Notes under the pieces: generated by a model
The model's input: only the letters and a program-made list of their open reading frames with translations
What the model was told of the DNA's origin: nothing
Database searches by the model: none
Shown: piece by piece, positions 1 to 63,419 of the stretch
Layout: each line of letters starts with the position of its first letter
How positions within the stretch are numbered: the stretch's first letter is position 1
DNA from: a virus
IMG/VR virus record: IMGVR_UViG_3300017829_000024
Coordinates: 1,157 to 65,156 of that record
Reading direction: 5' to 3' (one strand)
Length of the DNA: 64,000 nt
Position numbers and translations under genes: made by a program

Positions 1-837
1 GTAACCGGGAAAACGGATACGCACACGCGCGATCGCATTCTTCATGACCTCAAGACAGGCCGTTTGCGCGCCGTGACCAACGCAGACATCTTGACCGTCG
101 GATTCGACTGCCCACGAATCGATTTCATTGGCCTTCTTCGCCCCACGCTTTCGCCGGGACTCTTCGTTCAGATGGTGGGGCGCGGTCTTCGGCTTCATCC
201 AGACAAGGCCGACACCCTCATTCTCGACTACGGAGGCAACATTCAAAGACACGGAACGCTCGATGCGATCCGAATGCGTGAGCCCGGCGACAAGAAGGGA
301 ACTGCGCCCACGAAGGTCTGCCCCGTCTGTACGGCTGAGATCCCTCTGGCGGCCACAGAGTGCCCCGAGTGCCATGCCGATATCCGCAGCGAAGAGAGGC
401 CCAAGCCGAAACACGACGCAGAGGCCTCTGAGCAGGAGATCATTGGCACAGGCGCGCCCATAGAGGCGGTGAATGAAACTGTCACCGAGGTCCAGTATGC
501 CTATCATCGCGGCCGAAACGGAAAACCCCCGACCATGAAGGTCACCTATCGGCTCCAAGGCAAGCCTGCGCCCGTGTCCGAATGGGTCTGCATCGAGCAT
601 GATGGGTGGGCTCGGACGAGGGCCGAAAGCTGGTGGTTGCGTCGCTCCCTCGATAAGAAACACGCACCCGAAACGATTGAAGAAGCCCTCGCCCGAGCAC
701 CGGGCCTTCTTCAGCCACGGATCTTGGCCGTCGTCTACCCGCCTGATAGCTATCCAAAGATACGATGGGCAAAACGATTCATCGACCCGATCGGTCGACC
801 CGGGATGGAGAATGTGCGTCGGCTCAAACCAGTGTAG
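1..837 (+). CDS. SF2 (DEAD/DEAH, RadD/YejH-like) helicase, C-terminal part; 5' end outside window
   Basis: Frame open from base 1; motif V TNADILTVGFDCP, motif VI FVQMVGRGLR, LILDYGGNIQRHG, Zn ribbon CPVC..CPEC. Confidence 0.88.
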   Translation, partial: VTGKTDTHTRDRILHDLKTGRLRAVTNADILTVGFDCPRIDFIGLLRPTLSPGLFVQMVGRGLRLHPDKADTLILDYGGNIQRHGTLDAIRMREPGDKKGTAPTKVCPVCTAEIPLAATECPECHADIRSEERPKPKHDAEASEQEIIGTGAPIEAVNETVTEVQYAYHRGRNGKPPTMKVTYRLQGKPAPVSEWVCIEHDGWARTRAESWWLRRSLDKKHAPETIEEALARAPGLLQPRILAVVYPPDSYPKIRWAKRFIDPIGRPGMENVRRLKPV

Positions 838-1096
838 AGCACTATTATCATTGGCTCAAAGACGGCACGCGACTAGAACTTCTAGAGTGGGTTGGCGCAC
901 CGCTGGTCAGCTTTGAAGAGCTTGAAGAGATGGGCTACACGGTCATCATTGATAAGCGACTCGAGGTAACTCCTGGATTTGAACAGATGTAACGGGCCTC
1001 GGCATGCGGAAGCGGCGCGTTAAATGGCACAAGTTTACAGCATGCAATGGTATAGGCTTGACAGCGAAGCGAGGCGCCGCATACAGCGGTTTGCGG

Positions 1097-1768
1097 ATGA
1101 CAAAATCACAGCTTGCGGCGCCTCGTCGCATGAAGATCTCAACCGAATGCGCATTCACAATCAAGGGGCAAATAGACTGCCCCTTGCTGATGCACGCGCC
1201 GACAACCGTTGACCCGCTGAACCCATATTCAGTGAAGATGCGTAAGGTCTCTACAAAGCGCCAGAAAACCGAAGATGATTACGAGGCTATCTCTCGGATT
1301 GAGTTTCTTGCAGGGCTCTATTTCGAGGACGGAACCGGTCCGTACATTCCAAGTCGGGTCATTTCCGCGTGTTTGATTGATGGCGCTAAGAAGTTCAGGC
1401 TCGGTCGCGCCGCCCGTGCCGGCATTACGCCTAAATCGCCCCGGTTCTTCTTCAAGAAGTGGCGCGGACCCAAGACCGCCGAGGCGCTCTTTGAGTCTCG
1501 GCTCAAAGACGGAACACAGCGGTATGTTGATAAGCGATGCGTTCGCGTTACAACCAGCCGGATCATGAGGACGCGCCCCCGGTTTGACGCCTGGGAGATC
1601 GACGTAAGCCTCATCATTGACGCGACCGCATTTGATCCCGAGCGAATAGAAGACATCGTGCATGCCGCGGGCACGCTCGTCGGCATCTGCGATAATCGAC
1701 CCGAATGCGGACGATTTGAGCTCGATGGCGACATTGTCTTGACAGAAAACACACTCAAGATGGCCTAA
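1097..1768 (+). CDS. Small Cas7/RAMP-like RNA-binding protein (Vipr-like effector); start at 1097 or 1130
   Basis: FTIKGQ..PLLMH, YIPSRVISACL, R.RPRFDAW and C-terminal G-rich loop AGTLVGICDNRPECGRF typical of RAMP folds; lies upstream of a GGY-NN array. Confidence 0.72.
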   Translation: MTKSQLAAPRRMKISTECAFTIKGQIDCPLLMHAPTTVDPLNPYSVKMRKVSTKRQKTEDDYEAISRIEFLAGLYFEDGTGPYIPSRVISACLIDGAKKFRLGRAARAGITPKSPRFFFKKWRGPKTAEALFESRLKDGTQRYVDKRCVRVTTSRIMRTRPRFDAWEIDVSLIIDATAFDPERIEDIVHAAGTLVGICDNRPECGRFELDGDIVLTENTLKMA

Positions 1769-1781
1769 AAGGAGAACATCA

Positions 1782-2267
1782 ATGAATGCAGCAGAGAGGC
1801 GTCAACACGCACTTTCCCCGAAGGACCGAGCCATTGAGCGCGCTCATGTTCTCGCCGAGAAGATGATGGACTCACCCGGCGTAAGCTGGCCGGTTGACAC
1901 TGTCTGTCGCGAGCTTCAGATCCCCAAATGCAGAACGCATGACAGATACATACTGAGCGGATTCGAGGCGCTCTATCTGCATTCGGAGCTCGAACGTCAC
2001 GGTCATTACCTTGTGCCGGCTCGATCGGGAAACCGTGTGCAGTCCTACCATCTGGCAGATGATCGCGAAAAAGAACTGGTTGTCGCCAAGAAGTACGAGC
2101 AAAAGTCCATAACCTGCCTTGAAAAGCGCGTTCGCATCCTTGGTCAGGTTGTCAACTCGGACTACAACTCCGAGGAGAGAAAAAGATTAGAGGCCACGCG
2201 CCGCATCGCTTCCGCCGAGCTTGATGCGATAAAGCGCGCAAGAAAGCGCCACAAAGACGGCATCTGA
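1782..2267 (+). CDS. Accessory protein between RAMP-like gene and repeat array (function unknown)
   Basis: 161 aa ORF with RBS AAGGAG; stop codon 4 nt before the first pentamer. Confidence 0.75.
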   Translation: MNAAERRQHALSPKDRAIERAHVLAEKMMDSPGVSWPVDTVCRELQIPKCRTHDRYILSGFEALYLHSELERHGHYLVPARSGNRVQSYHLADDREKELVVAKKYEQKSITCLEKRVRILGQVVNSDYNSEERKRLEATRRIASAELDAIKRARKRHKDGI

Positions 2268-2271
2268 TCTT

Positions 2272-2850
2272 GGTTTGGCAGGGCATGGCCGGGCAAAGCC
2301 CGATCAGGCGCGGCCGGGTCAGTTGTGGCAAGGCTTGGCAGGGCTGGGCATGGCTAGGCATGGCAGGGCAGGGATTTGATCTGAATGTTTTACGGGGCCA
2401 GGCTCGGCAAGGCCCGGTGTGGCGTGGCAGGGCACGGTTCGGCACGACTTGGCACGGCAAGGCAAGGATTTGAATTCTAGATTTTTTCGGGGCATGGCAT
2501 GGCCAGGCTGGGCAAGGCAAGGATTTGAGTTTCAGAATTTAAACGCGGCCCGGCTCGGTGGGGTTCGGTGGGGCAAGGCACGGCGTGGCATGGCGAGGCA
2601 TGGATTTGAATTCTAAATTTAGATGCGGCTAGGCATGGCCTGGCTGGGCGCGGTCGGGCTCGGCCCGGCACGGTGCGGCATGGCCTGGCTGGGCTGGGCA
2701 AGGCAAGGATTTGAGTTCTAGGTTTTCACCAAGGCCGGGTTAGGCATGGCAGGAATTTGAGTTCTCAGTTTACGCGAGGCATGGCCGGGCGAGGCTCGGC
2801 GGGGCGCGGTATGGTGAGGCCAGGCGAGGCGCGACAAGGCAAGGGTTTGA
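2272..2850 (+). ncRNA. GGY-NN pentamer array, 7 units (20,14,6,11,16,4,13 pentamers), putative guide-RNA array
   Basis: Strict 5-nt periodicity; units at 2272-2371, 2396-2465, 2491-2520, 2547-2601, 2627-2706, 2733-2752, 2778-2842; each ends in GGATTTGA (variants GAATTTGA, GGGTTTGA); units separated by 24-26 nt AT-rich linkers. Confidence 0.9.
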
Positions 2851-2856
2851 GTGGAT

Positions 2857-3252
2857 ATGACACGCATTGAAACGATTGATCCGTCTCGGTTTGACGGCCG
2901 CCTTCGCCATCTTCCGCAGCCCAATGAAGACCTTCCCGTCCGTGCGTTTTGGGCAGACTATCTTGGTCAACCCAAAGGCCCCAAATGGAGGGGGCGCTTC
3001 GTTGACTGCGGAGACTATCGAGTCGAGCTTGTGCTTGATGATCAACAGTACCCAGACACGGTCAATCGATGTCCTCCGGGATGGTGGGATCGCCGCACCG
3101 GTCGGCCCTGCGGTGTGCCGGCGGATGTGGCATCGTTTCGGTTCGAGCTCATTCCAGCCGGCGAAACGCACTGGAGACAAGATGGCCAAAAGAAGCTTGA
3201 AGCGACGACGCATGACGAAGAAGAAGGCGCGTCAAAGCCTCCGAGACGGTGA
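2857..3252 (+). CDS. Hypothetical protein
   Basis: ORF starts right after the array; no recognised motif. Confidence 0.55.
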   Translation: MTRIETIDPSRFDGRLRHLPQPNEDLPVRAFWADYLGQPKGPKWRGRFVDCGDYRVELVLDDQQYPDTVNRCPPGWWDRRTGRPCGVPADVASFRFELIPAGETHWRQDGQKKLEATTHDEEEGASKPPRR

Positions 3253-3373
3253 CCCGCTAACCGACGAGCACCTCAAGACGCTCGAGATGCCCCGCGAGGC
3301 CTGGTGGGCCTATCGAGACATGCCTAAGCGATCGAAGCATGCCTTTGCTTGCGCGCTCGCCCAGCTCTTCTGA
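3182..3373 (+). CDS. Small basic hypothetical protein
   Basis: RBS GGAGA before ATG 3182; MAKRSLKRRR... Confidence 0.5.
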   Translation: MAKRSLKRRRMTKKKARQSLRDGDPLTDEHLKTLEMPREAWWAYRDMPKRSKHAFACALAQLF

Positions 3374-3393
3374 TGCGGGGTAGAAGAGACTTC

Positions 3394-3984
3394 ATGAAGC
3401 ATCTTCTGCTGTTCGCTCTTCTGCTTCTTTCCCCTCTCGCCTGCGGCTCCGATGAAGTCGATGCGGTCCTTGATGGGGGACTGCTCTCGCCTGATGCTCA
3501 AGTCGATGCCGGGCCGCTGCCCGAGCCCGACGCGGGTCCTGATGCCGGTGTGTCCGTCGAGTGCGCGTTCGCCACGTACTTTCGTGCCGATGCACCCCTC
3601 CCCTATGGGCCTGTGACGTACACATCGACGTCCGTGTCTGTGCTTTGCGATCTGCTTGTTTTCGGAGCGCCTTCGCCTCAAACCCTGATCGGCGGCGATG
3701 TCAGTCACTTCTTCGGTGCGCCTCGCGGCGAGGGGTTCTGGGTCGAGAGCCTGAATGCGCCCGATATTGTCGGCGGGCCCGAGACATCGACCGTCACCGC
3801 GCTCGTCCCCGCAGGCTTCAGCCCGGGCGAGTGGTCCATGCTCGAGCCCGATTGCTACGCGGCCGAGCTCGACGTGTGGATCGTGACCGCCTCCATCACT
3901 CCAGACCAGGAGGTCTCTCGAGGGACCGCCCGGGTATGGACGCGGCCTGACCGGCATGCCGCAGGCGATTGTCCGGGCCTCTGA
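3394..3984 (+). CDS. Lipoprotein with myxobacterial-style DAG repeats
   Basis: Signal peptide MKHLLLFALLLLSPLAC (lipobox LAC); DAGPLPEPDAGPDAG linker. Confidence 0.7.
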   Translation: MKHLLLFALLLLSPLACGSDEVDAVLDGGLLSPDAQVDAGPLPEPDAGPDAGVSVECAFATYFRADAPLPYGPVTYTSTSVSVLCDLLVFGAPSPQTLIGGDVSHFFGAPRGEGFWVESLNAPDIVGGPETSTVTALVPAGFSPGEWSMLEPDCYAAELDVWIVTASITPDQEVSRGTARVWTRPDRHAAGDCPGL

Positions 3985-3987
3985 CCC

Positions 3988-4383
3988 GTGTGGTTTTGGG
4001 CCTCGACGGAGCGGATGACGGTCGGGTTCGAGGTTGTCCGTGAGCGCGTTGTGACCGCGCCGCCCATCATCCGTCGCTTTGTAGGGCAACCCTGGGCCAA
4101 CCTGACCGACTGGCTCGAGAAGCAGCCCGGGTACCTTCTCGAGCGCACGGACCGCTTGATCGTCCCCCCGCCGCTCGGCCGCCCCTGCGACCAGTGTGGG
4201 TGCCCTCAGCCGCCCCACAGGTGCTTCTGCAGCCTTTGCCAGGGCTGGACCCATGACCGGCGCTGGCGCGCCGTCCTGGCCGAGGAAGCCAACGAGATCC
4301 CGCATAAGGACGGAAAGAACGTCCAAACGCTCTGGCCCGAGATCGCAGCCTCCTACGTCCATCCGTTACGTCGCCGTACGTAG
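3988..4383 (+). CDS. Hypothetical protein with Cys cluster
   Basis: CDQCGC..HRCFCSLC; start uncertain. Confidence 0.45.
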   Translation: MWFWASTERMTVGFEVVRERVVTAPPIIRRFVGQPWANLTDWLEKQPGYLLERTDRLIVPPPLGRPCDQCGCPQPPHRCFCSLCQGWTHDRRWRAVLAEEANEIPHKDGKNVQTLWPEIAASYVHPLRRRT

Positions 4384-4438
4384 CCCTCGCCCGCGGCGAG
4401 AGGAGGATAAGGGACGATCTGTGCCTACATTTTGCCTG

Positions 4439-4716
4439 TGGACCGGCTGGACCGGGGTGGACCAGAGGTCGCGGTCCACACTTTTCTCAGTGCTTTCATA
4501 TACATACCTTCTTGGACCGTTGGACCAAGTAATGTCTATATATAAGAGGGGGTGCGCGCTCCCTAAAAAAAAGAGGGGGGGAGGAGTCAACACATAGTGG
4601 TGAGCGGTTTTTTGCTGGTCCACATCAGGTTTCAAGCTAAACGCCTGAAATAATTGAAGATTTCCCGGACCACGGGTCGCGGTCCAGGCGCGGTCCACCC
4701 CGGTCCAGCCGGTCCA
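4439..4716. promoter_or_regulatory. Putative replication origin with GGACC/GGTCC iterons
   Basis: Perfect 25-bp inverted repeat 4439-4463 / 4692-4716; about 12 GGWCC motifs in both orientations; AT-rich core; directly downstream of primase-helicase. Confidence 0.7.
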
Positions 4717-4755
4717 GGCCAGGTTTTTGAAGGGTATGCCCGAAGAAAAGTAGGG

Positions 4756-7398
4756 CTAACGAAGGGTCAGCGTAGACCAGTTTTCGTCCATGGACCACCG
4801 CTCTGGGTGCTCAAAGTTCGGGGGAAGGTAAATCCTGGGTCGGGCCCCATTGGAGAGCCGGGGCCGATGAAAGGTCCATCCGAGCTCGGCCAGCGTGTTT
4901 TCGATCTCAAGCCGGTCTCGCTTCGTCCATTTGCCCTTTTCGAGGCCGACCGCGGTCAGGCAGGCGGACATGGTGACCGGGATGGGGCGCTCTTTGAGCG
5001 CGGACTCGAAGAGCTCGAACCAGGGATGGCGCGATCGGCGGCTGTCCCACACCTCTTCGATCTCCTGTTCGAACACCTCATCATCCTTGCTGGGCCACCA
5101 CTTCGCGCCGTTCTGAAGCTCATACACCGCCTCTGCGAAGATTTGGTCACGATGCGCCTCGACCCAAGGCACATCAATTTCCCTTTCGCCGAAAGGGACG
5201 CACCACATCCGTCTCGATCCGGTCGGGTCTTGAAGATAGCGCCGATCGTTGGTCGAGCCCCCAAAGACAACCCGTCTCGGGACGATGACCTCTTTGACGG
5301 CATAGGGGGGTCGAAAGTGGTCGGTCGCTTCGCTCAAAAAGGCCTTCGTGGCTTCAGTGCCTGCTCGGCCCGACTGAAGGAGTTCCCCGATCTCGATAAT
5401 GACTTTTCCGCAGAGGTGAATGAGGGAGTCCTTGCTTTGAAAGTCCGGGCTTCGACCCGAATACCACCGGGGTTCTTTGGCCATCGCCTTAAAGAACTGC
5501 GACTTTCCAATGCCCTGATCGCCCTCGAGCACAAGCATGTGATCAACCTGAGACCCGGGGCAAAAGGCTCTCGCCACGATGCTTATGGGCCACCACCGCC
5601 CCACCTGAATGAGGTACTCGCTTCGCGGAAGCCCCGTCAGATGAGGTAGCCAAGTATCAAGGATGGTCGGTGCTTCGGGGTCGTGCTCAAGGCTTTCAAG
5701 GTATTGCTTAAAAGGATCAAAAGGTCTCCTCATGGCCTCCGAGACAATCAGCTCGTAGAAGGTTCTTGTGGTGAAGTTTGTGCGAAGCATTTTGGTGCAC
5801 AAACGCAAAAGTCGCGTAACGCCTTGAGCCTGAAGTATCCCGGCGGGTATGCCGGCCACGCGTTGCTCAAGAACAACGATGTCTTGGGCGCGTTCGTCGA
5901 AGCCCAAAAGACCCTTCATCATGGGCTCTTCTTCGAGGAAGATGGCAGCATTATGCAAAAGCTGTTTGATCGTGCCCTTGTCGTTATACAGGTACTCCCC
6001 ATGAAGATGTCGCTGATTAGAAGATGACGATTGCTCCTCGGCTTTTTCGTCCTCGACGGCTTTTCGGGTATGTTGAGCGATGGCGCTTCGAATCTCTTTG
6101 AGGGGCAACTTGAAGCGGTTTTTGACCGCTCGCATATAGCTTTCGCGCTCCGTAAAGCGATCCCCGCGAAGCGCTTCACCCATCATCTTGAATATGGGGG
6201 AAAGCTTCTTCGTCAGCTTTGCGCCCTTAAGGTCGCGGTCTATGTCTTCAATGAGCCATTCGACATATGAGACCGCTTCACCCACAAAGCGCTCATCGAA
6301 GGACGCTTTGCTGTGCGCTTGAAGATAGGCCGCCGCGTCGGTCTTTTCGTCGGCCTGATGGGTCAGGATGCAAACCGATGTTTCACGCTCCGCACGAAAC
6401 AGCGCTTCGCCCACGATTCGTGCGGATTTGACTCCCGATCCGTTTGGCTCGATGTCCGGAACCAAGACAAGGCTGGTGCCTTCGCTCTTCTTGACGAGCG
6501 CCTTGACGCGCCCGGTGTTCCCGCCGAGCCCGCTGAGGGCGACCGCCGGCCAGCCGGCCTGTTCGATCGCCATCGCATCGAACTGGCCTTCGACCACGCC
6601 CAGGATGACCCCCGCACGACGCGCCCGGGCGAAGGCGTCCTCGTTGAAGAGGACCTGAGCATCGATCGCCGGAGAGATGCGCCGGTCGGTCTGAGACGTA
6701 CCGAGCATCCGGTATTTCGGCTCAACATCGGCCTTCATCGTTCGACCGGTCATGAACATGCACCGATCCCCTCGCCAGTAAGGGATCGTAATGCGGTGCA
6801 TCATGGTCTCGTATGTATGGCCCTTTTGGCTCTTTGAAAGCAGTCCAGCGCGCCAAGCCCATCGCTCTTCGATCCCTCGCTCCTTGAGCATGTCGAAGAG
6901 CCCACCTCCGATCCCGAGCTTGAAGCGATCGATTGTTTCATCCGTGAAGCCTCGACCATGCAGATACGACCGGCCTTCCTCGGTGAGGTTCTCGTGGTAG
7001 AAGAGGGCCGCAGCCGTCAGGGTTTCGATCGTGTTCTTCGCGTCCCAGTGTGCATCGGCCAGCCGCTTCTTCTCTTGGGGGCTGCGCGCAGGCCGACCAC
7101 CGGTGAGCTGAAACAGCATGTCGATGGCCTCACGCATCGTCATGCCTTGCTCTTTGGTCACGAAGTCGAGGAATGTTCCCCCTTCGCCGGCCATGTCGTG
7201 GTAAATGCCATAGCCATCCCCACGATCAGGAATGTATGTGAATGAGGGGTGCGACTCGCCCCGATGAACAGCCAAACCCGTCCAGTTGCCGCTGGCGGGC
7301 TTGTGATTGAACTGAACGAGACCTTCTCGTTCGAGCCACTCTCCAAAATTCAGTTTCCGTAGGGCTTCGAGGATCTCAGGATCGCGTTGTTTGCCCAT
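4756..7398 (-). CDS. DNA primase (Toprim) fused to VapE-like P-loop helicase
   Basis: DnaG-like N-terminus, Toprim VVEGQFDAM, Walker A LVLEGDQGIGKS, VFGGSTNDRRYLQDPTGSRR. Confidence 0.92.
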   Translation of the reverse strand: MGKQRDPEILEALRKLNFGEWLEREGLVQFNHKPASGNWTGLAVHRGESHPSFTYIPDRGDGYGIYHDMAGEGGTFLDFVTKEQGMTMREAIDMLFQLTGGRPARSPQEKKRLADAHWDAKNTIETLTAAALFYHENLTEEGRSYLHGRGFTDETIDRFKLGIGGGLFDMLKERGIEERWAWRAGLLSKSQKGHTYETMMHRITIPYWRGDRCMFMTGRTMKADVEPKYRMLGTSQTDRRISPAIDAQVLFNEDAFARARRAGVILGVVEGQFDAMAIEQAGWPAVALSGLGGNTGRVKALVKKSEGTSLVLVPDIEPNGSGVKSARIVGEALFRAERETSVCILTHQADEKTDAAAYLQAHSKASFDERFVGEAVSYVEWLIEDIDRDLKGAKLTKKLSPIFKMMGEALRGDRFTERESYMRAVKNRFKLPLKEIRSAIAQHTRKAVEDEKAEEQSSSSNQRHLHGEYLYNDKGTIKQLLHNAAIFLEEEPMMKGLLGFDERAQDIVVLEQRVAGIPAGILQAQGVTRLLRLCTKMLRTNFTTRTFYELIVSEAMRRPFDPFKQYLESLEHDPEAPTILDTWLPHLTGLPRSEYLIQVGRWWPISIVARAFCPGSQVDHMLVLEGDQGIGKSQFFKAMAKEPRWYSGRSPDFQSKDSLIHLCGKVIIEIGELLQSGRAGTEATKAFLSEATDHFRPPYAVKEVIVPRRVVFGGSTNDRRYLQDPTGSRRMWCVPFGEREIDVPWVEAHRDQIFAEAVYELQNGAKWWPSKDDEVFEQEIEEVWDSRRSRHPWFELFESALKERPIPVTMSACLTAVGLEKGKWTKRDRLEIENTLAELGWTFHRPRLSNGARPRIYLPPNFEHPERWSMDENWSTLTLR

Positions 7399-13687: not shown

Positions 13688-13801
13688 CCATGAACAGGAA
13701 CACGGATTTCTCAGCGGGCGGGCTGAGTGCGCAGTCCGAGGCCGGGTTGTGGGACCCTTGCCACCCAAGGCAGGCCTCTTCCCGCGCAGGGAGAGCCTAC
13801 C

Positions 13802-16800
13802 ATGCGCGAGCTTGGCGACCGATTGCGAAAACTCCTGGCCCTGCAGGGCGTAACGCCCGTGATGCGGCTCCTGGTGCAGGTGCCGCAGGAGACGGTGCTT
13901 CGTGTGACGGACGTCGCCGCGACGGGCCCAACAGTCTCCATCGTGGATCGGGAGGGGATGATCCAAACAGCGGACGCCGCCGCGGGCGCGTCCGACGTTC
14001 TTGTACGCACGCCGGCCGACCGGGCAAAGGCAATCGCCAAGGCCATCCAGGACGCCGAGGTAGAGGGCCTTTGGGCGAATTCGGATGCGGATCGGTCCGA
14101 CGTGGGCTTTGTCCGCATCGTCGTTGCGCCCGAGCTCAACCAGCTTCCGCAGATCTTGGCGGGCGGGACTGAGGTGGTCGATACGCCCGCGACGCCAGGC
14201 GCGGTCCGCTTCGTCGAGCTCAATTCGAGCGATGTACCGATGAGCGCGATTGGGGGCGCGGTCGGCGAAGTCGATCAGCCTTCTGGCTTTGGGACGATCG
14301 TCGAGGCCGAATCCCTCAAGACCGCGATCGATGTTCGCTCTCGAGAGCCGATCGGCGCCGCATTCCTAATCCGCGTAGCCGGCGGCGAGGGCATCCGGCG
14401 TCTGTTTCTCGTTCACCCGCCGCAATCGCTAAGACTGAACCTCTTTCTTGGCGCATATCACGCGAGAGATGAAGTACGCGTAGCCGCGGCCAACCAGTTC
14501 ATCGGCCCGGCCGTTCCTGAGTTTGAATCGTTTGGTCAATGGTATGTCAGTGAAGAGCCTGTCGGGCATCCAGATGGAACCGTTACGCTGACGATCATTG
14601 ACGAAATATCGCGACTCGCAAACCTCAAGCTTCAGCCTCTTCAGTTTCGATACCTTCACCCGTATCAGGCAATTGAAGAGCATCTCGAAACGATCGGCCT
14701 GCGTTCAGGCGCAGGCTATGCGCCAGGCACATTCAACCCCACCAGAAACCCGACGAAGGGTCATTTCATCGTCGGCAACTACAATCTAGATCAGAACTAC
14801 ATTGTCGAATCACCTCGAGACGCACAAGAGCGATCGATTTCGTTCACAAAGACCCTTCAGGATCTCCTTGTCACCACCGGCGATGCGCTCCGCATTAATG
14901 ACGAGGGCAACCTCGAGCTCATTCTTTATGACCCTACGACGGAGCCGGTACGTCATTTTAGAGCAGGTCCCGATACTGGTTTTGACGCAACCGTGCCAGA
15001 GCTCGTCAGTCCGCACATGTACAACCGGATTGTTTGGGATGTGCCCATCAGCCTGCTTACGCCGGCCAATCGGGACGGTGTCGACCAGAAGTACCCCGAG
15101 CGCATATCTCAGAAGTTCGAAAGCGAAGCCTCTAGAATATGGCTGCGTAAGATTGAAGATCTAAGCATCGAGAATCCCTATATTGGTCGCGCCACGAGCG
15201 GCGGTCGGCCCGTCACAGGCTCAGTGTGGAACACCTTCGTCCCGCTGAACTACGGCCAGGACTCTATGGTCTTTGAGCCCTATACGGACTCGGCAGGTGG
15301 CTTGATTGCGGGATCGGATCGGGTCCGAGTAAAGCATCCTCACGTAAGCAACTGGTGCGGCCTTCGCGTTGTTATGCCAGATTACAATCTGGAAGAGCCT
15401 GCGAACGACGAAAGATACGACCGCTTATACGATCCGGACTTTAAGAACCCGTTTACCGGTTCCTATCCCGCCTTTGAGTACGATGAGCTTGTCTATGAGG
15501 ACGATGTTGCAAACCTAAATCCCGAAGAAGGGCGAATCGCGTTCATCCGATTTGATCCCCCTGGCGGCCGAAAGCGCGTTCTCGATCTCCCTGTGGCAGA
15601 GATGAGCGGCCTGTTTCAGTTTGAAGGCCGAGAGATTATTCCGGACGAACCAGAGTTCTTGCCGGAGGTCATTGCGATCGACGAGTGGATCGTTCTTCTG
15701 GGTGACGAGCCGGGTAATGTCCATCAGATCCGCACGCACGCAAGGGCGGTGCTGCTGAACCGATTCGACGCGTCACTGGCCGAGCGCGAGAACCTGCCCG
15801 AGTTTATTCGGGTCGATCCATACATCCGTGAAGCGGTTCTTGAGGACCTGCAGTTTCATATTGCAGGGGATTTCATGCAGCTCGATCCCGAAGAGTTCCC
15901 TCAATACCGGCGGATCATTTCAACACGCGGCGACGGCCGGGGCATCAACAACACTCTCGTCCCTCACGCTTGGGCGCTTCGTCCGGCCCCCAATCCTCGT
16001 GCGCCCAAAGATGTCGCGACGATGTCGGACATTACGATTGCGACGTATCGATCCGCGGAGCTCCTCAACCGATTCGAATTCGGTGCGCCCGAGATTCGGT
16101 TCGACGTCAGAATCTCAAACCTGGACCTTCAGCTCGCTGATGTCATCACGATTGATGACCCGAGCTATGTGGGCTATCGCCGATCAGGCCTCGACCGGAC
16201 GGTTACGTTTGAAATCACAGGCCTAGAATACCACTGGCTCGCCGATCAGCCGCGCATCACAATCACGGCGGTCCAGCTTGCTGACAACGGCAACACGTCG
16301 CCCTATGCGCTCAAGCCCACCCGGCTTGTGCCTGAGAACATGGTCCCGCGTAATCGCGGCGTTGAATATCTTCGTCGTTCAGAGGACTTCTCTCCGGATG
16401 CCGAGATCGGCTTTTCGGCCAGCACGCTCACCGCGGAATGGAAGCGCACGAACTCCGCACAATCGAGTCTTGAGGCTGAATTCCGGGTAATGAGGTGGCG
16501 GCCCGTCAAGAACTACACGCACGTCCTGGGTCGATTTGTGGCGACCGGAATCGTCTATAACGCGGTCACGCAAAACTATCGAACATTTCGTGTCGAGACC
16601 GACTACACCTTCGATTACCAGGGCGTTCTTTCGCTCCGATCCACCGGTCAAGCATCCAAACTCCGCGAGAGCGGCGCCCTGCCCGAGGACATGGAGATCC
16701 GCCTCGATGCAGTAAACAATGCGCTTGAAGTCTGGGCCATTGGTACGGAGGGCGAGCAAAAGGAAGCCCAGGTCAATGCTGAGCTTCACGCTATCGAACA

Positions 16801-19800
16801 GAGCGCACTGATTGAGCCGCCTGATCAGGTATCTTCGATATTTGAGTGTGACACATTTGCCGAATGTGAGTTTATCGGCCTCGAGTTCATTGAGGGCGAG
16901 TTTGAGTGTGATGCTTTTTCAGAGTGTGAGTTCATTGGGGCGGTGGATGACGTTGTTCAGGACGTCGTCTCGACCTTTGATTGCGAGGCTCGGACAGAAT
17001 GCGAGTTTGAAGGCGTAGTCCAGGCGCCGCCAGAATGCCGGGTGGCCGCCGACGGCTTTCAGGATGGCGATGTCATTGTCCGGGGCGACACCCAGACTTT
17101 GAGCTTCGAGGCGCGCGATGACGTCGGCGTTGTGCGGGCTGAGCTCTATATCAACCGAAACCTGGTCCAGACTTGGCCGCCGGCCACGCCTCCAGCGCTG
17201 CCTTCTGATCCCGACACTTGGGTGCGGTTCGATTATCAGTGGGACACCAGCAATTACACCGGTGATGGAGCAGTCGTCACATTTGTTGCTTTTGATGCCG
17301 GCGATCGGGAATGCGCCGAAACGATCAAGGCCGATTTTGAGGATGCCCCGGCCGATTTCGTCTGCACCGTAACCGGCTTGACCGATGGCGATGTAGTGTC
17401 TGGGACTGAGCGGCTCGTCATCAGCGTGACAAACACTCCAGGGCTTGCTGAGGCCAGGCTGACCATCGACAACATTCTTGTCCGGAAATGGCCGCCTCCG
17501 CCCGATCAGGTCATTCAGGGTGTGGCGCAGCCTGACTTGCCCACCACCCGATCACAGAGCGAGCGGACCTTTACGTTCACTTATGACTGGAACACCACCG
17601 CCTCGCCGAACGAATCGGTCGTGATTCGTTTCATGGCCACGGATCTCGACGGTCGTTCGTGCGACCTCATTGCCAAGGCGGTCATTGAAAACCCGACGGC
17701 CGCTCCTGGCCGGGTCACATGCGCGCTTCAGGCCCAGACCGCAGCCGGTGGAGGGCAGCCCGCGATTTCGGATGGCTCGACGGTCACCGGCAACGTCTGG
17801 TTCCGAATCACCGCCAGCGCACCCACAGGAGGGCCTCTCCTTCGCCAGGCCGCGCTCACCATTGACGGGGACGACTTCTGGTTCGACAGCTTCCCAGGGC
17901 CGCAGAACGCCCTCTCCATTGTCGTGGGCCCATGGGACTCGGCGCCCAAGGCGGGCTCGAGCGTCATCGTGCGGCTCGAGGTGGTCGATGTGAACGGTGG
18001 GGTTTGCGTCAACTTCCTGAAGCTCGAGGTGGGCGGGACGGCGCCTCCGCCGGTTGAGGATGTGCCCTTCAACTGCGGTCTCTTCCTCTTCGCGAACAAC
18101 ATGGAGGTGAGCGACGGGGACGAGGTCACTGGGGAAATCGAGATTCGCTATAACGCCGAGTACGCCGCGGGGATCGCCGGCTTTGAGCTTTCGATTAATG
18201 GGTCGGTGCAGGACTCGGGCACCTTCGGGCCAACGCCGCCCATGACGCGTCTGCCGGCCACGCCGGCCGCTCCGGCGAACCTGGGGTTTGAGACGTTCAC
18301 TTGGAACACCTCGGCCCAAGGGGGCTCGGATGGCGTCTTGATTCGCCTGGATGTGGTCGGCCTCGATGGTCGGACCTGCACCGAGTTTTTCAAGGTCGAC
18401 GTGGGAGGCGTTGCCCCGCCGCCCATGGACGTTGCCCCGCCAGAATGCCGACTCGATGCGCGGATTGATGCTTCGAACCCCATCAATGACGGCGATACGG
18501 TCTCCGGAACGATTCAGCTCCTTGTGCGCGGTCGGGATCCGGCCGGGATCGCCGGCTACACCATCACGGCCGACGGCCGGACCATTGGCGGGCGAGACTT
18601 TCCGCCCGAGGCCATGACCACGCAATTCGGGTTCGACAGCGAAGGCAACCCGGATCCGACGGTCTTCAACTTTGATACGACGATCCTCGAGAACGGTCAG
18701 GATTTGATCTTCAAGCTTGAAGTGGTTGGGGTCAGCGGGCTGACGTGCCTGAGCTTTTTGAAGCTCACCGTAAACAACCCTGTCATTCCAGATGCGGACG
18801 TCCCGGTCTGCCGCATCAACTCTCCGCAGGATGGGGAAACGATTTCCGGAACGGAAACGCTCGTGGCAACAGCGAGCGACCCCGCGACCATCACGCGCAT
18901 AAGCTGGCAGATCGACAGCCAGCCGCCCATGGTGACCAACCTGGACATGCCTGAAGCGAGTCCAGATCCGTTCGAGCTCGAGCTCGACACAACGAGCCTC
19001 AGCAACGAAGGCCACATCATTCGGTTTGAGGCGACGAACGCCAATGGTGTCATGTGCCGCGACACGATCAAAGTCGAGGTGCAAAACGATCTGCCGACAT
19101 GTCAACTCACTCTGCCTGTCGCGGGTCAGTCATTTGTTGGGCCCTACGATATCGTCTTTCGTGTTCAGGCGCCTCGGGGTGTTCAGACAACACAGCTTTT
19201 CGTGGATGGTGTACCAATCGATTCGCGCACGTTTGACGACATGCCCACTGATACTGGATTTTTAACTTTTGGTGCATCGGTTGCGGATCTTTCAGTAGGC
19301 AACCACACTTTGAGACTATTGGCGGTCGACGCCAATAATGAAACGTGTGAGGAATCAGTTCAGTTTGTTCGGTCGGATGCAATACCTCCCACTGTTGATT
19401 TTTCTTTTCCAGGAGTAAATGTCACGGAATTCACTACGGCTGCGGCGGTCTCCTTTCGCGCCCGAATACGCACATCGGGCGGCCGTTTTGCTCGCCGAAT
19501 CCTGATGCTAAAAAACGGTGTTCAGGTAGGACAGGTTGGCGAAAGCTCTGCCAGCACTTCGCTGTTAGAAACCCCAGTATTCACGTTTCAGCCAGGCAAC
19601 GAACCGAATGGTCCGGTTGTTTTTACGGCAGTTGGAACCGATTCTGATGGCGTAACGAATCGATTTGAGCGCCGTTTTACGATCAATATCGGAGCAAATA
19701 GATTGCTTCGGATCACTCCATCAACCCCGCCTGCAAACCGGCTTGTCACCTACACCTCAAGCATCAGTCTTTTGGCTTCGATCCAACCCACGGGCTACAG

Positions 19801-21520
19801 CCTGAATCCGGACCTGGTCTCTCGCCGCATCTACATCGATGACGATCTCCTCATGGAGAATCGTTCGACATCTCAGATCAATCAAATTCGATTTAATTCC
19901 TGGAACCCAACTGCGGCCGGCCTGACGAATGGACAGCACATGGTTCGTTTTGAAGCAGAGACAAGCGATGGCCGAATTTGGTCTTCAGAGGTGCCTTTCG
20001 TCTTCAACGGCGCGACACCTGGCCCCACGATTGCGTTCACGCGGCCTGAGGCGAATGAGGTTGTATCTGGCTCTGTAACGGTTGATTTTGACCGAACCCT
20101 GCCGCCCGGTGCCATGTTCAATCGTCTCGAGTTTTTTGTGGATGACGAGACTGACCCAAGCCTCGAGTTCACGGAAGAGCCCACCAGCTTTCAATGGGAC
20201 ACTTCTTCGTCCGTCGATGGAGAGCACACACTTCGTTTGCGCATTACGGATTCAAACAACCGATCAGGTGAAGCAACACTTGAGGTCATTGTCCGCAATG
20301 CGGACACAACCCCGCCTCGGGTCACGTGGAACACACCGGCTGCCGATGCGGCACTGGGCTTTCCGCTGGCCAATGGGAATCCAAATCCGCAGCAGTCAAC
20401 CCCTCTTTCAGTTTCGGTCATCGACGATCAGAGCGAAGTGCGCCTTGTGGAGTTTTTGGTCGACGGCACGCTCATCGACTCCGAAACCGCCAACACGCGC
20501 GCTCCAAACTATTCGGGCACCTGGGAGTTTCGAAACTGGCCTGATGGGCCACATCTTTTGACGGTGCGCGCCACCGATGAGCACGGCAATCGAGGGGAGG
20601 CCACACGTCGAGTGTTCGTCCGGAGCGGCGGCGAGGGCGGCGCAATCCCGACCGCGCCCACGGTCGACATTCAACAGCCGACCACTGGATCCACGGTCTC
20701 TGGGGACATCCCAGTTCGAGCAACGGTTCTCGGCGACAACGTTCAGACCACGCAGCTTTTCGTGGACGGCACGATCTTCCGGACGAACCAGGGCCGAGAC
20801 GGGGCCTTCAGCCTTCCGACCGACGAGTTCACGAACGGTAACCACACACTCACGGTCCGGGCGGTGGATGCGCAGGGCAACGTGGGAACGGACTCGGTCG
20901 TCATCACAATCGCGAACGAAGCGGCGCCCGCGATCTCGGTGCGCATCGATTCGCCCATGGACGGATTCACGGTCACCGGAGACAGCGAGGACATCGCCTT
21001 TACGGTCACCGGCGGAACCGCGCCCTTTTCGGCGCAGCTCATTGTGGACGGAGCCAATGTCGGATCACCCGTGAATATCACCGGGGCCTCCGGCATGCTC
21101 ACGTGGCCGACGGCCGGCGCTTCGAATCGAGGCTACACGGTTTCGGTTCAGATCACAGACAACGCTTCGATGATGGCGTTCGACACCATCAAGCTCACCG
21201 TGAGCCGCCCCGACGGCGGACCCCGCATCACTTTCGTGGGCCCGACAAACATCCCCTCGAACAACATCAATGTGGTTGCGCAAATCCGCGTAGATGGCAC
21301 ACGCACAGTGACGCAAGCTTTCCTTCAGGCGGGCGCCGACGCCGCCATCACCCCAGACACCACCCTTCCCGCCGCTCCAGGTTCGATCATTCGGTTTACA
21401 TGGCCGATCCCGTCTTTCACCGGCGAGTCGCGACAGTACCCGTACACCTTTACGGCGCGCGATTCTGAAGGAAATCCAAGCAATGTGATCCGAGGGATCT
21501 GGACGATCGACCGAAGCTAG
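13802..21520 (+). CDS. Giant tail tip/adhesin protein: hub-like N-terminus plus about 14 tandem bacterial Ig-like domains
   Basis: About 2570 aa; repeats such as PTVDIQQP..GSTVSG...QLFVDG...TNGNHTLTVRAVD; RBS GGGAGAG before ATG 13802. Confidence 0.85.
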   Translation: MRELGDRLRKLLALQGVTPVMRLLVQVPQETVLRVTDVAATGPTVSIVDREGMIQTADAAAGASDVLVRTPADRAKAIAKAIQDAEVEGLWANSDADRSDVGFVRIVVAPELNQLPQILAGGTEVVDTPATPGAVRFVELNSSDVPMSAIGGAVGEVDQPSGFGTIVEAESLKTAIDVRSREPIGAAFLIRVAGGEGIRRLFLVHPPQSLRLNLFLGAYHARDEVRVAAANQFIGPAVPEFESFGQWYVSEEPVGHPDGTVTLTIIDEISRLANLKLQPLQFRYLHPYQAIEEHLETIGLRSGAGYAPGTFNPTRNPTKGHFIVGNYNLDQNYIVESPRDAQERSISFTKTLQDLLVTTGDALRINDEGNLELILYDPTTEPVRHFRAGPDTGFDATVPELVSPHMYNRIVWDVPISLLTPANRDGVDQKYPERISQKFESEASRIWLRKIEDLSIENPYIGRATSGGRPVTGSVWNTFVPLNYGQDSMVFEPYTDSAGGLIAGSDRVRVKHPHVSNWCGLRVVMPDYNLEEPANDERYDRLYDPDFKNPFTGSYPAFEYDELVYEDDVANLNPEEGRIAFIRFDPPGGRKRVLDLPVAEMSGLFQFEGREIIPDEPEFLPEVIAIDEWIVLLGDEPGNVHQIRTHARAVLLNRFDASLAERENLPEFIRVDPYIREAVLEDLQFHIAGDFMQLDPEEFPQYRRIISTRGDGRGINNTLVPHAWALRPAPNPRAPKDVATMSDITIATYRSAELLNRFEFGAPEIRFDVRISNLDLQLADVITIDDPSYVGYRRSGLDRTVTFEITGLEYHWLADQPRITITAVQLADNGNTSPYALKPTRLVPENMVPRNRGVEYLRRSEDFSPDAEIGFSASTLTAEWKRTNSAQSSLEAEFRVMRWRPVKNYTHVLGRFVATGIVYNAVTQNYRTFRVETDYTFDYQGVLSLRSTGQASKLRESGALPEDMEIRLDAVNNALEVWAIGTEGEQKEAQVNAELHAIEQSALIEPPDQVSSIFECDTFAECEFIGLEFIEGEFECDAFSECEFIGAVDDVVQDVVSTFDCEARTECEFEGVVQAPPECRVAADGFQDGDVIVRGDTQTLSFEARDDVGVVRAELYINRNLVQTWPPATPPALPSDPDTWVRFDYQWDTSNYTGDGAVVTFVAFDAGDRECAETIKADFEDAPADFVCTVTGLTDGDVVSGTERLVISVTNTPGLAEARLTIDNILVRKWPPPPDQVIQGVAQPDLPTTRSQSERTFTFTYDWNTTASPNESVVIRFMATDLDGRSCDLIAKAVIENPTAAPGRVTCALQAQTAAGGGQPAISDGSTVTGNVWFRITASAPTGGPLLRQAALTIDGDDFWFDSFPGPQNALSIVVGPWDSAPKAGSSVIVRLEVVDVNGGVCVNFLKLEVGGTAPPPVEDVPFNCGLFLFANNMEVSDGDEVTGEIEIRYNAEYAAGIAGFELSINGSVQDSGTFGPTPPMTRLPATPAAPANLGFETFTWNTSAQGGSDGVLIRLDVVGLDGRTCTEFFKVDVGGVAPPPMDVAPPECRLDARIDASNPINDGDTVSGTIQLLVRGRDPAGIAGYTITADGRTIGGRDFPPEAMTTQFGFDSEGNPDPTVFNFDTTILENGQDLIFKLEVVGVSGLTCLSFLKLTVNNPVIPDADVPVCRINSPQDGETISGTETLVATASDPATITRISWQIDSQPPMVTNLDMPEASPDPFELELDTTSLSNEGHIIRFEATNANGVMCRDTIKVEVQNDLPTCQLTLPVAGQSFVGPYDIVFRVQAPRGVQTTQLFVDGVPIDSRTFDDMPTDTGFLTFGASVADLSVGNHTLRLLAVDANNETCEESVQFVRSDAIPPTVDFSFPGVNVTEFTTAAAVSFRARIRTSGGRFARRILMLKNGVQVGQVGESSASTSLLETPVFTFQPGNEPNGPVVFTAVGTDSDGVTNRFERRFTINIGANRLLRITPSTPPANRLVTYTSSISLLASIQPTGYSLNPDLVSRRIYIDDDLLMENRSTSQINQIRFNSWNPTAAGLTNGQHMVRFEAETSDGRIWSSEVPFVFNGATPGPTIAFTRPEANEVVSGSVTVDFDRTLPPGAMFNRLEFFVDDETDPSLEFTEEPTSFQWDTSSSVDGEHTLRLRITDSNNRSGEATLEVIVRNADTTPPRVTWNTPAADAALGFPLANGNPNPQQSTPLSVSVIDDQSEVRLVEFLVDGTLIDSETANTRAPNYSGTWEFRNWPDGPHLLTVRATDEHGNRGEATRRVFVRSGGEGGAIPTAPTVDIQQPTTGSTVSGDIPVRATVLGDNVQTTQLFVDGTIFRTNQGRDGAFSLPTDEFTNGNHTLTVRAVDAQGNVGTDSVVITIANEAAPAISVRIDSPMDGFTVTGDSEDIAFTVTGGTAPFSAQLIVDGANVGSPVNITGASGMLTWPTAGASNRGYTVSVQITDNASMMAFDTIKLTVSRPDGGPRITFVGPTNIPSNNINVVAQIRVDGTRTVTQAFLQAGADAAITPDTTLPAAPGSIIRFTWPIPSFTGESRQYPYTFTARDSEGNPSNVIRGIWTIDRS

Positions 21521-35895: not shown

Positions 35896-36349
35896 TTTTC
35901 AGCCTCTCTCGCGCAGAGAGCGCGAGCTCGGCCCATGATGTGTATTGGCTTCCTCGGCCTTCTTCTTCGAGCTGATAAATGACGCGATCCAGGGCAATAT
36001 CCGTTTGAAGTTTCGCCCAAATCGCCATGTAGCCGCGCCGTGCTGTGTGATCCATTCCGGCCTGCATCATGAGGATCGATAGGGATCGGACGCGCTCGAC
36101 CGCGTCATCGTCTGATGCGTCCGCGAAGGCGAGCGCATCGACCGTGCGAAGGCGTTTGGCCTCATAGAGCGCCGCCTCTTGCCTCCAGGCCTGAAGGAGT
36201 CGCGGGTGGTCCTTCATGCGCTTTGCGAGCGTCGTTCGCGCCATCATGAGGGTGTCCGCGATTTGGGCGGGCCGAAGACCCTGACCCGCAAGGACGCGGA
36301 TGCGCGACTCGAGAAGCCGCACATCCTTGTGCCATGGCCGAGGAATCAC
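35855..36349 (-). CDS. terS: Terminase small subunit candidate
   Basis: N-terminal HTH (GLRPAQIADTLMMARTTL); GTGA overlap start; upstream of terL. Confidence 0.6.
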   Translation of the reverse strand: MIPRPWHKDVRLLESRIRVLAGQGLRPAQIADTLMMARTTLAKRMKDHPRLLQAWRQEAALYEAKRLRTVDALAFADASDDDAVERVRSLSILMMQAGMDHTARRGYMAIWAKLQTDIALDRVIYQLEEEGRGSQYTSWAELALSARERLKNGERNRERTDNDQ

Positions 36350-63317: not shown

Positions 63318-63391
63318 TGGTGCAAGCCGGATTTGAACCGGCAACCCATCGGTTAACAGCCGATTGCTCTACCAAAGTGAGCTATTGCGTG
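63318..63391 (-). tRNA. tRNA-Asn(GTT) with defective or short acceptor stem
   Basis: ATCGG-CTGTTAA-CCGAT anticodon arm, GCTC/GAGC D arm, TTCAAAT T loop; only 4 acceptor pairs. Confidence 0.75.
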
Positions 63392-63419
63392 TAGGCGCAT
63401 CCTTGGAGGATGCGACGTC

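What the first reader, a model, noticed from the sequence alone, without database searches (positions are those of the whole stretch)
2778..2842. Unit 7 decodes to the DnaB helicase signature when every third base is skipped
NN string: AT CG GA TC GG GC AT GA CA GA GC AA AA. As codon positions 1-2 this reads [IM]-R-[DE]-S-G-A-[IM]-[DE]-[HQ]-[DE]-A. That matches the highly conserved DnaB motif LR(E/D)SG(A/S)IEQDAD for 10 consecutive codons. The skipped base falls on the wobble position, so the guide would be immune to most synonymous escape. No dnaB is present in this window, so the target would be a competing phage or the host replicative helicase.
Basis: partly seen in the sequence, partly recalled or inferred. 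Interest (0 to 1): 0.93.

Follow-up and report, generated by a model that had tools for sequence, protein, structure and literature searches.

The report
Phage VIPR guide aimed at DnaB
The seventh unit of this phage's pentamer-repeat array is a guide RNA of a VIPR system, a CRISPR-like system first described in 2026; its variable bases spell the most conserved motif of DnaB replicative helicases, so it is a new example of a known system with an unusually broad predicted target.

Summary
Window 2776-2845 is 14 NN-GGY pentamers, and the 12 variable dinucleotides read D-[I/M]-R-E-S-G-A-I-E-Q-D-A as codon positions 1-2.

This is not chance:
- The gapped pattern has 60 exact 24/24 matches in IMG/VR viral contigs, all in frame in DnaB-type helicase genes. 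A shuffled-order control has 0.
- It has at least 120 exact matches in bacterial genomes.
- In one phylum, 192 of 201 genomes have a site with no more than 2 mismatches; a backwards control has 0.

The mechanism is already published. The locus is a VIPR system (bioRxiv 10.64898/2026.04.26.720920 and .720927):
- The gene at 1004-1768 matches the solved SUSP1 Vipr protein (PDB 36pp, E 1e-22).
- An accessory gene and 7 vrRNA units follow it.
- The skip-one-base, wobble-phased code was shown experimentally for SUSP1.

What is new is the target, an ultraconserved replicative-helicase motif. Unit 2 likewise matches SF2 helicase motif V perfectly in another VIPR-bearing phage. The phage has no DnaB; it carries a primase-VapE helicase.

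I could not tell whether the natural target is a rival phage's dnaB (perfect match, Ile/Met variant) or the host's (usually 23/24, Leu). The host is unknown.

This scan has found VIPR arrays before on other DNA.

Verdict: a new member of a known kind, of moderate interest.

The parts
1..837 (+). C-terminal part of the phage's own SF2 DNA helicase. Its motif V lies at about 76-113.
   Evidence: Pfam Helicase_C and phrog_16 DNA helicase. It is 44% identical to the helicase of L188. Its own motif V matches unit 2 at only 19/26.
1004..1768 (+). vipr gene: a small RAMP-type protein that binds the guide RNA
   Evidence: phmmer against PDB 36pp_D 'SUSP1 Vipr protein' gives E 1.1e-22, residues 59-241 against 12-188 of 202. 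tblastn hits phiSUSP1 at E 6e-22 and 131 phage records in all. It also matches phrog_4652.
1782..2267 (+). Accessory ORF in the vap position (161 aa), function unknown
   Evidence: It occupies the same place as vap1 in SUSP1 but has no blastp similarity to it. It has no Pfam or PHROG hit and no homologue in 181 viral loci. The only lead is a weak structural likeness to MarR-type regulators, TM about 0.4.
2270..2379 (+). vrRNA unit 1: 21 pentamers, 3 of them not GGY, possibly two fused guides, plus TTTGA
   Evidence: No target was found above shuffled controls.
2394..2473 (+). vrRNA unit 2: 13 variable and 2 constant pentamers. Read antisense it spells VNVDVLTTGFDCP, which is SF2 helicase motif V.
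   Evidence: One exact 26/26 hit in IMG/VR (L188:494-531), in frame on the antisense strand of a ResIII+Helicase_C gene. Hits of 23/26 occur in two further VIPR-bearing loci, against a shuffle maximum of 20.
2489..2528 (+). vrRNA unit 3: a short unit of 7 pentamers
   Evidence: It is too short for a target search.
2545..2609 (+). vrRNA unit 4: 12 pentamers reading APSGSGKTV[IM][DE][IM], which resembles a P-loop
   Evidence: There is no exact match in IMG/VR or in the metagenome contigs, and nothing above shuffled controls locally.
2625..2714 (+). vrRNA unit 5: 15 variable and 2 constant pentamers
   Evidence: There is no exact match in IMG/VR, and nothing above shuffled controls locally.
2731..2760 (+). 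vrRNA unit 6: a very short unit of 5 pentamers
2776..2835 (+). vrRNA unit 7, guide part: 12 NN-GGY pentamers whose NN spell D[IM]RESGAIEQDA, the DnaB motif
2836..2851 (+). Unit 7 constant end: AAGGC AAGGG TTTGAG. This is the short conserved 3' tail shared by all units.
   Evidence: Alignment A1 of the seven tails, consensus GGCAAGGCAAGGATTTGAGTTCTA. The AA AA positions do not match the DnaB targets.
2857..3252 (+). Downstream ORF (131 aa), unknown. It starts 6 nt after the last tail.
   Evidence: It has no Pfam or PHROG hit.
4756..7398 (-). The phage's own primase-helicase (a DnaG-type primase core plus a VapE/D5-type helicase domain), which is not of the DnaB family
   Evidence: Pfam VapE-like_dom E 2e-60 and DNAG_N E 2.8e-10. 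There is no DnaB_C anywhere in the record.

Best explanation
Unit 7 is one of seven guide RNAs (vrRNAs) of a phage-encoded VIPR system.

By analogy with the SUSP1 system, the mechanism would be as follows:
- The array is transcribed on the + strand behind vipr (1004-1768) and the accessory gene.
- One Vipr protomer binds each GGY triplet and presents the following NN.
- The filament pairs these NN with two of every three bases of a DNA strand, flipping out the third. This forms a gapped R-loop/triplex of 35 bp that blocks transcription.

The 12 NN of unit 7 have the sequence of the coding strand of the DnaB motif D-[I/M]-R-E-S-G-A-I-E-Q-D-A, with the skipped base on the wobble position. The guide would therefore pair with the template strand about four fifths of the way along any dnaB-type gene that encodes this peptide, whatever its synonymous codons.

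The most likely natural targets are the replicative helicase genes of rival phages or prophages in the same host, which must be expressed anew to replicate. The phage would not harm itself, because it replicates with a primase-VapE helicase and has no DnaB.

What is shown here: Vipr homology, the array anatomy, and perfect in-frame natural matches. What is inferred from the literature: RNP assembly, binding and silencing. What is inferred without a direct test: which dnaB is hit in nature.
For: - The Vipr homologue matches the solved SUSP1 Vipr at E 1.1e-22 and matches 131 phage records.
- The gene order vipr, accessory gene, array is the same as in SUSP1.
- 79 of 91 pentamers are NN-GGY, with variable NN and a conserved tail.
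- 64 of 120 viral loci found by the pentamer pattern alone carry a Vipr homologue.
- The published rule is a 1-nt skip, mostly wobble-phased, on either strand, with no PAM and acting by transcriptional silencing.
- Unit 7 has 60 exact 24/24 viral matches, all in frame in DnaB-type genes at 0.79-0.86 of ORF length. The shuffled control has 0.
- A second guide (unit 2) has a perfect, wobble-phased match in the SF2 helicase of another VIPR-bearing phage.
- There is no self-target: the best unit 7 match in the window is 16/24, which is shuffle level.
- The record has no DnaB, and its own helicase is VapE-type.
- Published natural targets are mostly competing mobile elements.
Against: - There are no expression or binding data for this locus.
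- The tail is much shorter than the SUSP1 tail, and its fold was not tested.
- The accessory ORF has no similarity to vap1.
- No single rival element was found on which several guides converge, unlike SUSP1, where 18 of 20 guides hit one satellite.
- Units 4 and 5 have no perfect match in any collection scanned.
- No other record carries the same guide.
- None of 298 guides from 120 other arrays hits DnaB loci above shuffled controls.
- The match is at motif level and occurs in many phyla, so it cannot point to a specific victim.
- The host is unknown.
- The target lies late in the gene (0.82), where a roadblock still allows most of the transcript to be made.
Confidence: 0.6

Rival explanations
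1. The same VIPR guide is aimed at the host's own chromosomal dnaB, either to shut off host replication or to remodel it, rather than at rival phages.
For: - In the phylum of genome G002, 192 of 201 genomes carry a site with no more than 2 mismatches. Nearly all of these have exactly one mismatch, a Leu codon against the guide's AT, which is 23/24 or 96%.
- Exact matches also occur in chromosomal-looking dnaB genes of several genera, for example about 10 Exiguobacterium species and Demequina.
- The published cut-off for a natural target is 80% NN identity or more.
- The phage has its own non-DnaB helicase, so it might dispense with host DnaB.
Against: - Silencing transcription of a gene whose stable protein is already loaded on forks should have little effect within one infection cycle (inference).
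- The perfect match needs Ile or Met, the variant seen in the viral DnaB genes. The cellular genes sampled mostly have Leu.
- Published natural targets are mostly mobile elements.
- In another phylum, only 9 of 61 genomes have a site with no more than 2 mismatches.
- The host is unknown.
Confidence: 0.2
2. The unit is a VIPR vrRNA, but the DnaB reading has no functional consequence. It could be a decayed or non-expressed unit, or a guide whose real target is something else and which resembles the DnaB motif by accident.
For: - It is the last unit of the array, and its tail deviates after TTTGAG.
- One GGY is GAC and the terminal one is GGG.
- No other array carries this guide.
Against: - The probability of these 12 NN given the array's composition is about 1e-14.
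- 60 viral and at least 120 cellular exact matches all lie in one protein motif and in frame, while shuffled and backwards controls give 0.
- The match spans exactly the variable part of the unit.
Confidence: 0.07
3. The guide acts as a decoy or parking site. It sends Vipr filaments to a harmless conserved host locus, as satellite solo vrRNAs send SUSP1 VIPR to REP elements, or it regulates the dosage of the system.
For: Decoy targeting of conserved host sequences by vrRNAs has been described (10.64898/2026.10.15.759431). The host dnaB would be a near-perfect site in many genomes.
Against: - Published decoys are encoded by the victim (the satellite), not by the owner of the VIPR system, and they aim at multi-copy repeats. 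dnaB is single-copy, with one site per genome.
- There is no evident benefit to the phage.
Confidence: 0.05
4. It is not a guide RNA at all. The pentamer array would instead be a protein-binding or structural repeat, such as TRAP-like triplet binding, a G-quadruplex, or origin iterons.
For: This was my first reading, before I saw the neighbouring gene. The pattern of triplets at 5-nt spacing recalls TRAP sites (from my own knowledge).
Against: The adjacent gene is a clear Vipr homologue. The architecture is the same as the experimentally characterised SUSP1 locus. Two units have perfect natural matches under the 1-nt-skip rule.
Confidence: 0.02

Closest known systems
VIPR type II system of Escherichia phage SUSP1 (Vipr, vap1 and vrRNAs; bioRxiv 10.64898/2026.04.26.720920 and .720927; PDB 36pp)
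   Same: - Homologous Vipr protein (29% identity, E about 1e-22).
- Same gene order: vipr, accessory gene, downstream vrRNA array.
- Guides are built of GGY/NN pentamers.
- Natural matches follow the 1-nt-skip, wobble-phased rule.
- The system is carried by a phage.
   Different: - The constant triplet is GGC rather than GGT.
- There are seven tightly packed units of 5 to 21 pentamers.
- The conserved tail is only about 20 nt (GGATTTGARTTCTA), not a tail of about 45 nt with a pseudoknot.
- The accessory ORF is unrelated in sequence to vap1.
- Vipr has an extra stretch of about 58 residues at its N-terminus.
- The predicted targets are ultraconserved helicase motifs, not a satellite's recombinase.
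VIPR of the Pseudomonas fulva prophage clade (same paper)
   Same: Its guides are aimed at genes of resident or competing phages, and some systems target relatives that also carry VIPR.
   Different: There, the targets are mainly lysis-lysogeny regulators of one prophage locus. Here, the targets are replication helicase motifs, and no single convergent target element was found.
Class 1 CRISPR effector complexes (Cas7 backbone, Cascade/Csm)
   Same: A RAMP-fold protein polymerises along a guide RNA, and a thumb flips out bases periodically. The outcome resembles CRISPRi roadblocking.
   Different: - The periodicity is 2 paired bases plus 1 skipped on the target and 3 sequestered on the guide, not 5 plus 1.
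- There is no CRISPR repeat-spacer array and there are no Cas1/Cas2.
- No PAM has been reported.
- The system is encoded by a virus.
   Same: It makes the same kind of prediction: a vrRNA whose NN spell a conserved helicase motif.
   Different: It concerns a different genome and a different constant triplet (G-R-A). It is an unchecked AI note that I did not re-test.

Membership tests
VIPR system | A Vipr protein (a small RAMP homologue) is encoded at the locus. | tested here: met
   Window 1004-1768 against PDB 36pp_D 'SUSP1 Vipr protein' gives E 1.1e-22 over residues 59-241. tblastn to phiSUSP1 gives E 6e-22.
VIPR system | vrRNAs are made of tandem GGY/NN pentamers (9-16 per guide in the characterised clades), with conserved GGY and hypervariable NN. 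| tested here: met
   79 of 91 pentamers are NN-GGY, and 16 different NN are used. Units 2, 4 and 7 have 12-15 pentamers. Units 1 (21) and 5 (17) are longer than the published range, and units 3 and 6 are shorter.
VIPR system | An invariant 3' tail caps each guide. | tested here: met
   All seven units end in G(G/A)(A/G)TTTGA, and most continue as RTTCTA..TTT. The tail is much shorter than in SUSP1, and its fold was not tested.
VIPR system | A vipr-accessory (vap) gene lies next to vipr. | tested here: inconclusive
   A 161-aa ORF sits in the vap position (1782-2267) but has no similarity to SUSP1 vap1 or to anything else in the loci held. There is a weak structural lead to MarR-like regulators.
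VIPR system | Natural targets obey the 1-nt-skip rule, with the skipped base mostly on the codon wobble position. | tested here: met
   Unit 7 has 60 of 60 viral hits in frame. Unit 2 has one exact hit, in frame on the antisense strand.
VIPR system | No self-targeting at 80% NN identity or more. | tested here: met
   The best self matches are at shuffle level. For unit 7 the best is 16/24. For unit 2 the best is 19/26 (73%), on the phage's own helicase motif V.
VIPR system | vrRNAs are expressed, co-purify with Vipr, and bind dsDNA and silence transcription. | not testable with these tools
   This has been shown only for the SUSP1 and P. fulva systems in the preprints.
DnaB-family replicative helicase (the predicted target) | The matched genes carry the DnaB_C domain, with or without the DnaB N-terminal domain. 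| tested here: met
   Six matched ORFs give Pfam DnaB_C at E 1e-72 to 1e-119, and five also carry the DnaB N-terminal domain. 47 complete ORFs are 422-495 aa long.
CRISPR-Cas | A repeat-spacer array and cas genes (cas1/cas2, effector modules). | tested here: not met
   No CRISPR-type repeats were found by TRF or Rfam. The only RAMP-type gene found at the locus (ORFs from 1 to 4383 were scanned) is vipr.

The most novel reading that the evidence does not exclude
VIPR guides can be addressed to a peptide motif rather than to one gene. By spelling only codon positions 1-2 of an invariant catalytic motif (the DnaB 'RESGAIEQDA' motif, or SF2 motif V), a single guide would recognise the replicative helicase genes of very many unrelated phages, and within one mismatch the dnaB of almost every bacterium in some phyla. 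This would give a broad-spectrum weapon that is nearly proof against escape, and possibly one directed at the host. Neither a helicase target nor a host essential-gene target is mentioned in the two VIPR preprints searched for these terms.
Probability: 0.35. Interest if true: 0.7.

Novelty: new member of a known kind. Interest (0 to 1): 0.45.

Why it matters
The VIPR preprints describe guides against satellites, prophage regulators and other VIPR loci. A natural guide that spells one of the most conserved motifs in bacterial replication would show that the wobble-skipping code is used to lock onto sequences that a victim cannot change even at the protein level. That gives breadth across unrelated competitors, and it raises the question of whether phages also use VIPR on essential host genes.

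It also offers a ready-made natural guide and target pair, 24/24 against 23/24 with a single Leu/Ile difference, for measuring mismatch tolerance. None of the three preprints reports mismatch tolerance in the text I could search.

Tried and rejected
1. My first readings were a TRAP-like triplet-binding RNA, a G-quadruplex, or origin iterons. I dropped these once the neighbouring gene proved to be Vipr and the literature was found.
2. Convergence of several guides on one element was not found. Within the 60 DnaB-bearing viral loci, no other unit scores above shuffled controls.
3. Reciprocal targeting was not found. The guides of L188, whose helicase unit 2 matches perfectly, do not hit the window above shuffled controls.
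4. Recurrence of a DnaB guide was not found. None of 298 guides from 120 other pentamer arrays hits the DnaB loci above shuffled controls. That run also shows the 80% NN criterion is at noise level for guides of 9-12 units on Mb-sized target sets (70 of 298 shuffled guides reach it).
5. Exact-match scans for unit 4 (IMG/VR and metagenomes) and unit 5 (IMG/VR) gave 0 hits.
6. The vrRNA-7 sequence itself was found in no other viral or metagenome record.
7. Host inference failed. The portal protein has only weak hits to phages of unrelated hosts.
8. The lifestyle is undetermined. No tyrosine integrase was found, in a record that is 81% complete.
9. No sigma-70-like promoters were found inside the array.
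10. Only one shuffled pattern was run on the big collection, because scans are capped. The backwards-pattern control on 262 genomes gave 0.

Full report
**The observation**

The intergenic region 2268-2856 of the window lies between two + strand ORFs. It consists of seven units. Each unit is a run of NN-GGY pentamers that ends in (AAGGC AAGG)ATTTGA and is followed by a short AT-rich linker. Of 91 pentamers, 79 are exact NN-GGY.

Unit 7 (2776-2845) reads GA AT CG GA TC GG GC AT GA CA GA GC AA AA at its NN positions. Taken as codon positions 1-2, the 12 variable dinucleotides give D-[I/M]-R-[D/E]-S-G-A-[I/M]-[D/E]-[H/Q]-[D/E]-A. The two final AA pentamers are constant in most units.

**Is it more than chance?**

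I searched public collections with the gapped pattern GANATNCGNGANTCNGGNGCNATNGANCANGANGC.
- IMG/VR viral contigs give 60 exact matches on 24 of 24 specified bases.
- All 60 are in frame at ..SD[I/M]R[E/D]SGAIEQDAD...
- They lie in ORFs of 422-495 aa, at 0.79-0.86 of the ORF length.
- Six matched ORFs (four of these viral ones and two from the genome scan) were checked, and all are Pfam DnaB_C, E 1e-72 to 1e-119.
- A control with the same dinucleotides in shuffled order gives no match in the same collection.

I then allowed up to 2 mismatches in whole genomes.
- In 201 genomes of one phylum (that of a 'Deltaproteobacteria' MAG), 192 have a site. Almost all have exactly one mismatch, a Leu codon where the guide has AT. 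The pattern read backwards has none.
- In another phylum (that of Exiguobacterium), only 9 of 61 genomes have such a site.
- About 0.02 hits per Gb with no more than 2 mismatches are expected by chance. The probability of this NN string given the array's own composition is about 1e-14.

**What it is**

The gene immediately upstream of the array region (1004-1768, 254 aa) matches the solved 'SUSP1 Vipr protein' (PDB 36pp chain D) with E 1.1e-22 by sequence alone. By tblastn it matches 131 phage records, including phiSUSP1, other Felix O1-like phages, Gordonia phage MakoManhole and Mycobacterium phage LittleE.

VIPR (Viral Interference Programmable Repeat) systems were described in 2026 preprints (10.64898/2026.04.26.720920.720927 and 10.64898/2026.10.15.759431). 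They report the following:
- A small RAMP protein, Vipr, polymerises on a vrRNA made of GGY/NN pentamers with an invariant 3' tail.
- Each GGY is sequestered and each NN is presented.
- The filament pairs with dsDNA, skipping every third target base. The skipped base mostly falls on the codon wobble position.
- Either strand can be targeted, and no PAM is needed.
- The result is transcriptional silencing of competing satellites, prophages or phages.

The SUSP1 locus has the same order as the window: vipr, accessory gene, downstream vrRNA array. Independently, 64 of 120 viral loci that I retrieved using only a (GGCNN)x8 pattern carry a Vipr homologue in the fetched flanks. The window itself is a virus record of 65.5 kb, with a portal protein, a 2597-aa Ig-domain-rich protein with a match to the tip-attachment protein J Ig-like domain (probably a tail-fibre-type protein), a RecT-like protein and a primase-helicase.

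The array is therefore a VIPR vrRNA array, and unit 7 is one of its guides. Four things differ from the type II exemplar:
- The constant triplet is GGC.
- The tail is much shorter.
- Unit lengths are heterogeneous.
- The accessory ORF (1782-2267) has no detectable similarity to vap1 or to anything in the loci held. It has only a weak MarR-like structural lead.

**How unit 7 most likely works**

Under the published register (guide 5'-GGYNN-3', target strand 3'-xNN-5'), the guide's NN equal the non-target strand. Here that is the dnaB coding strand, so the vrRNA would pair with the template strand over 35 bp. The flipped-out base would be the wobble base of each codon.

The guide therefore specifies a peptide motif rather than one nucleotide sequence. 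The 60 viral matches differ freely at third positions.

The phage has no DnaB_C domain and replicates with a DnaG-type primase fused to a VapE/D5-type helicase. Its best self-match is 16/24, which is shuffle level. It would therefore not target itself.

**Support from the neighbouring guides**

Unit 2, read antisense, spells SF2 helicase motif V. It has one exact 26/26 match in IMG/VR, in frame, in a ResIII+Helicase_C gene. That contig (L188) itself carries a vipr homologue and its own vrRNA arrays, and its helicase is 44% identical to the window's. The window's own motif V matches unit 2 at only 19/26. Two further VIPR-bearing loci match unit 2 at 23/26, against a shuffle maximum of 20.

At least two of the seven guides therefore spell conserved motifs of replication helicases.

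**What remains open**

I could not decide whether the natural victim is a rival phage or the host.
- A perfect match needs Ile or Met at the second position. That is the variant in all 60 viral hits and in some bacterial genera.
- Most chromosomal dnaB genes sampled have Leu, giving 23/24.
- None of the three preprints reports mismatch tolerance in the searchable text.

On general grounds, silencing a gene that a rival must express anew should be effective, whereas silencing host dnaB, whose protein is already present, should matter little within one infection. I therefore favour rival phages (0.6) over the host (0.2).

The evidence against a tidy picture is as follows:
- No single element was found on which several guides converge.
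- Units 4 and 5 have no exact match anywhere I could scan.
- No other record carries this guide.
- None of 298 guides from other arrays hits DnaB loci above shuffled controls.
- The host could not be inferred.

**Novelty and score**

The system, the gapped code and the argument that wobble skipping defeats synonymous escape are all published. This scan has already met VIPR arrays on other DNA. What is new here is a further, divergent member with an unusual predicted target class. Neither DnaB nor any replicative helicase is mentioned as a target in the two preprints I searched for these terms.

I classify it as a new member of a known kind, with interest 0.45. The most novel reading not excluded is that such guides are broad-spectrum weapons addressed to a peptide motif, possibly also used on essential host genes (probability about 0.35).

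Noticed in passing
L007:2415-2670 (Mycobacterium phage Saal, NC_023580 about 36,580-36,840): Fourteen records of Cheoctovirus (cluster F) mycobacteriophages (a few phages appear under two accessions) carry an NN-GGC pentamer array between gp50 and gp51. It is punctuated by a 4-nt step (GGC-a-GGC) about every 11 pentamers. The downstream gp51 (248 aa) has only faint similarity to Vipr (blastp E 0.048; PDB 36pp E 0.47). It may be a VIPR of another type with staggered guides.
   Followed up: partly
L188 (IMGVR_UViG_3300024512_000152): 3480-5080 and 5086-5607, minus strand: The contig whose SF2 helicase is perfectly matched by unit 2 is itself VIPR-bearing. It has a vipr homologue 33% identical to the window's. 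At least eight vrRNA units, with a different tail (TTGGACTTTTTTCGACTCGTACAACT), are interspersed among small ORFs. Its guides do not match the window above shuffled controls.
   Followed up: yes
window 76-113 (- strand reading): The phage's own SF2 helicase motif V (TNADILTVGFDC) is the diverged counterpart of the unit 2 target. It matches at 19/26, just above the 95th percentile of shuffles (18) but below the 80% cut-off. This is consistent with avoiding self-targeting.
   Followed up: partly
window 4438-4717: Tandem Repeats Finder reports 9-10-bp repeats (GTGGACCGG / CGCGGTCCAG) at 4438-4463 and 4678-4717, beside the primase-helicase gene.
   Followed up: no
window 13727-21520: A very large ORF (2597 aa) rich in bacterial Ig-like domains (Big_7 x4, Big_13, Ig_J). 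It is probably a tail fibre or host-recognition protein.
   Followed up: no
window 36256-36350, 63318-63391, 63419-63492 (all - strand): Three phage-borne tRNA genes: Glu(CTC), Asn(GTT) and Met(CAT).
   Followed up: no
In 64 of the 120, a Vipr homologue is detectable nearby. The other 56 either lack it in the fetched flank or carry more distant Vipr types. A few are simple repeats such as (GGCAC)n.
   Followed up: partly
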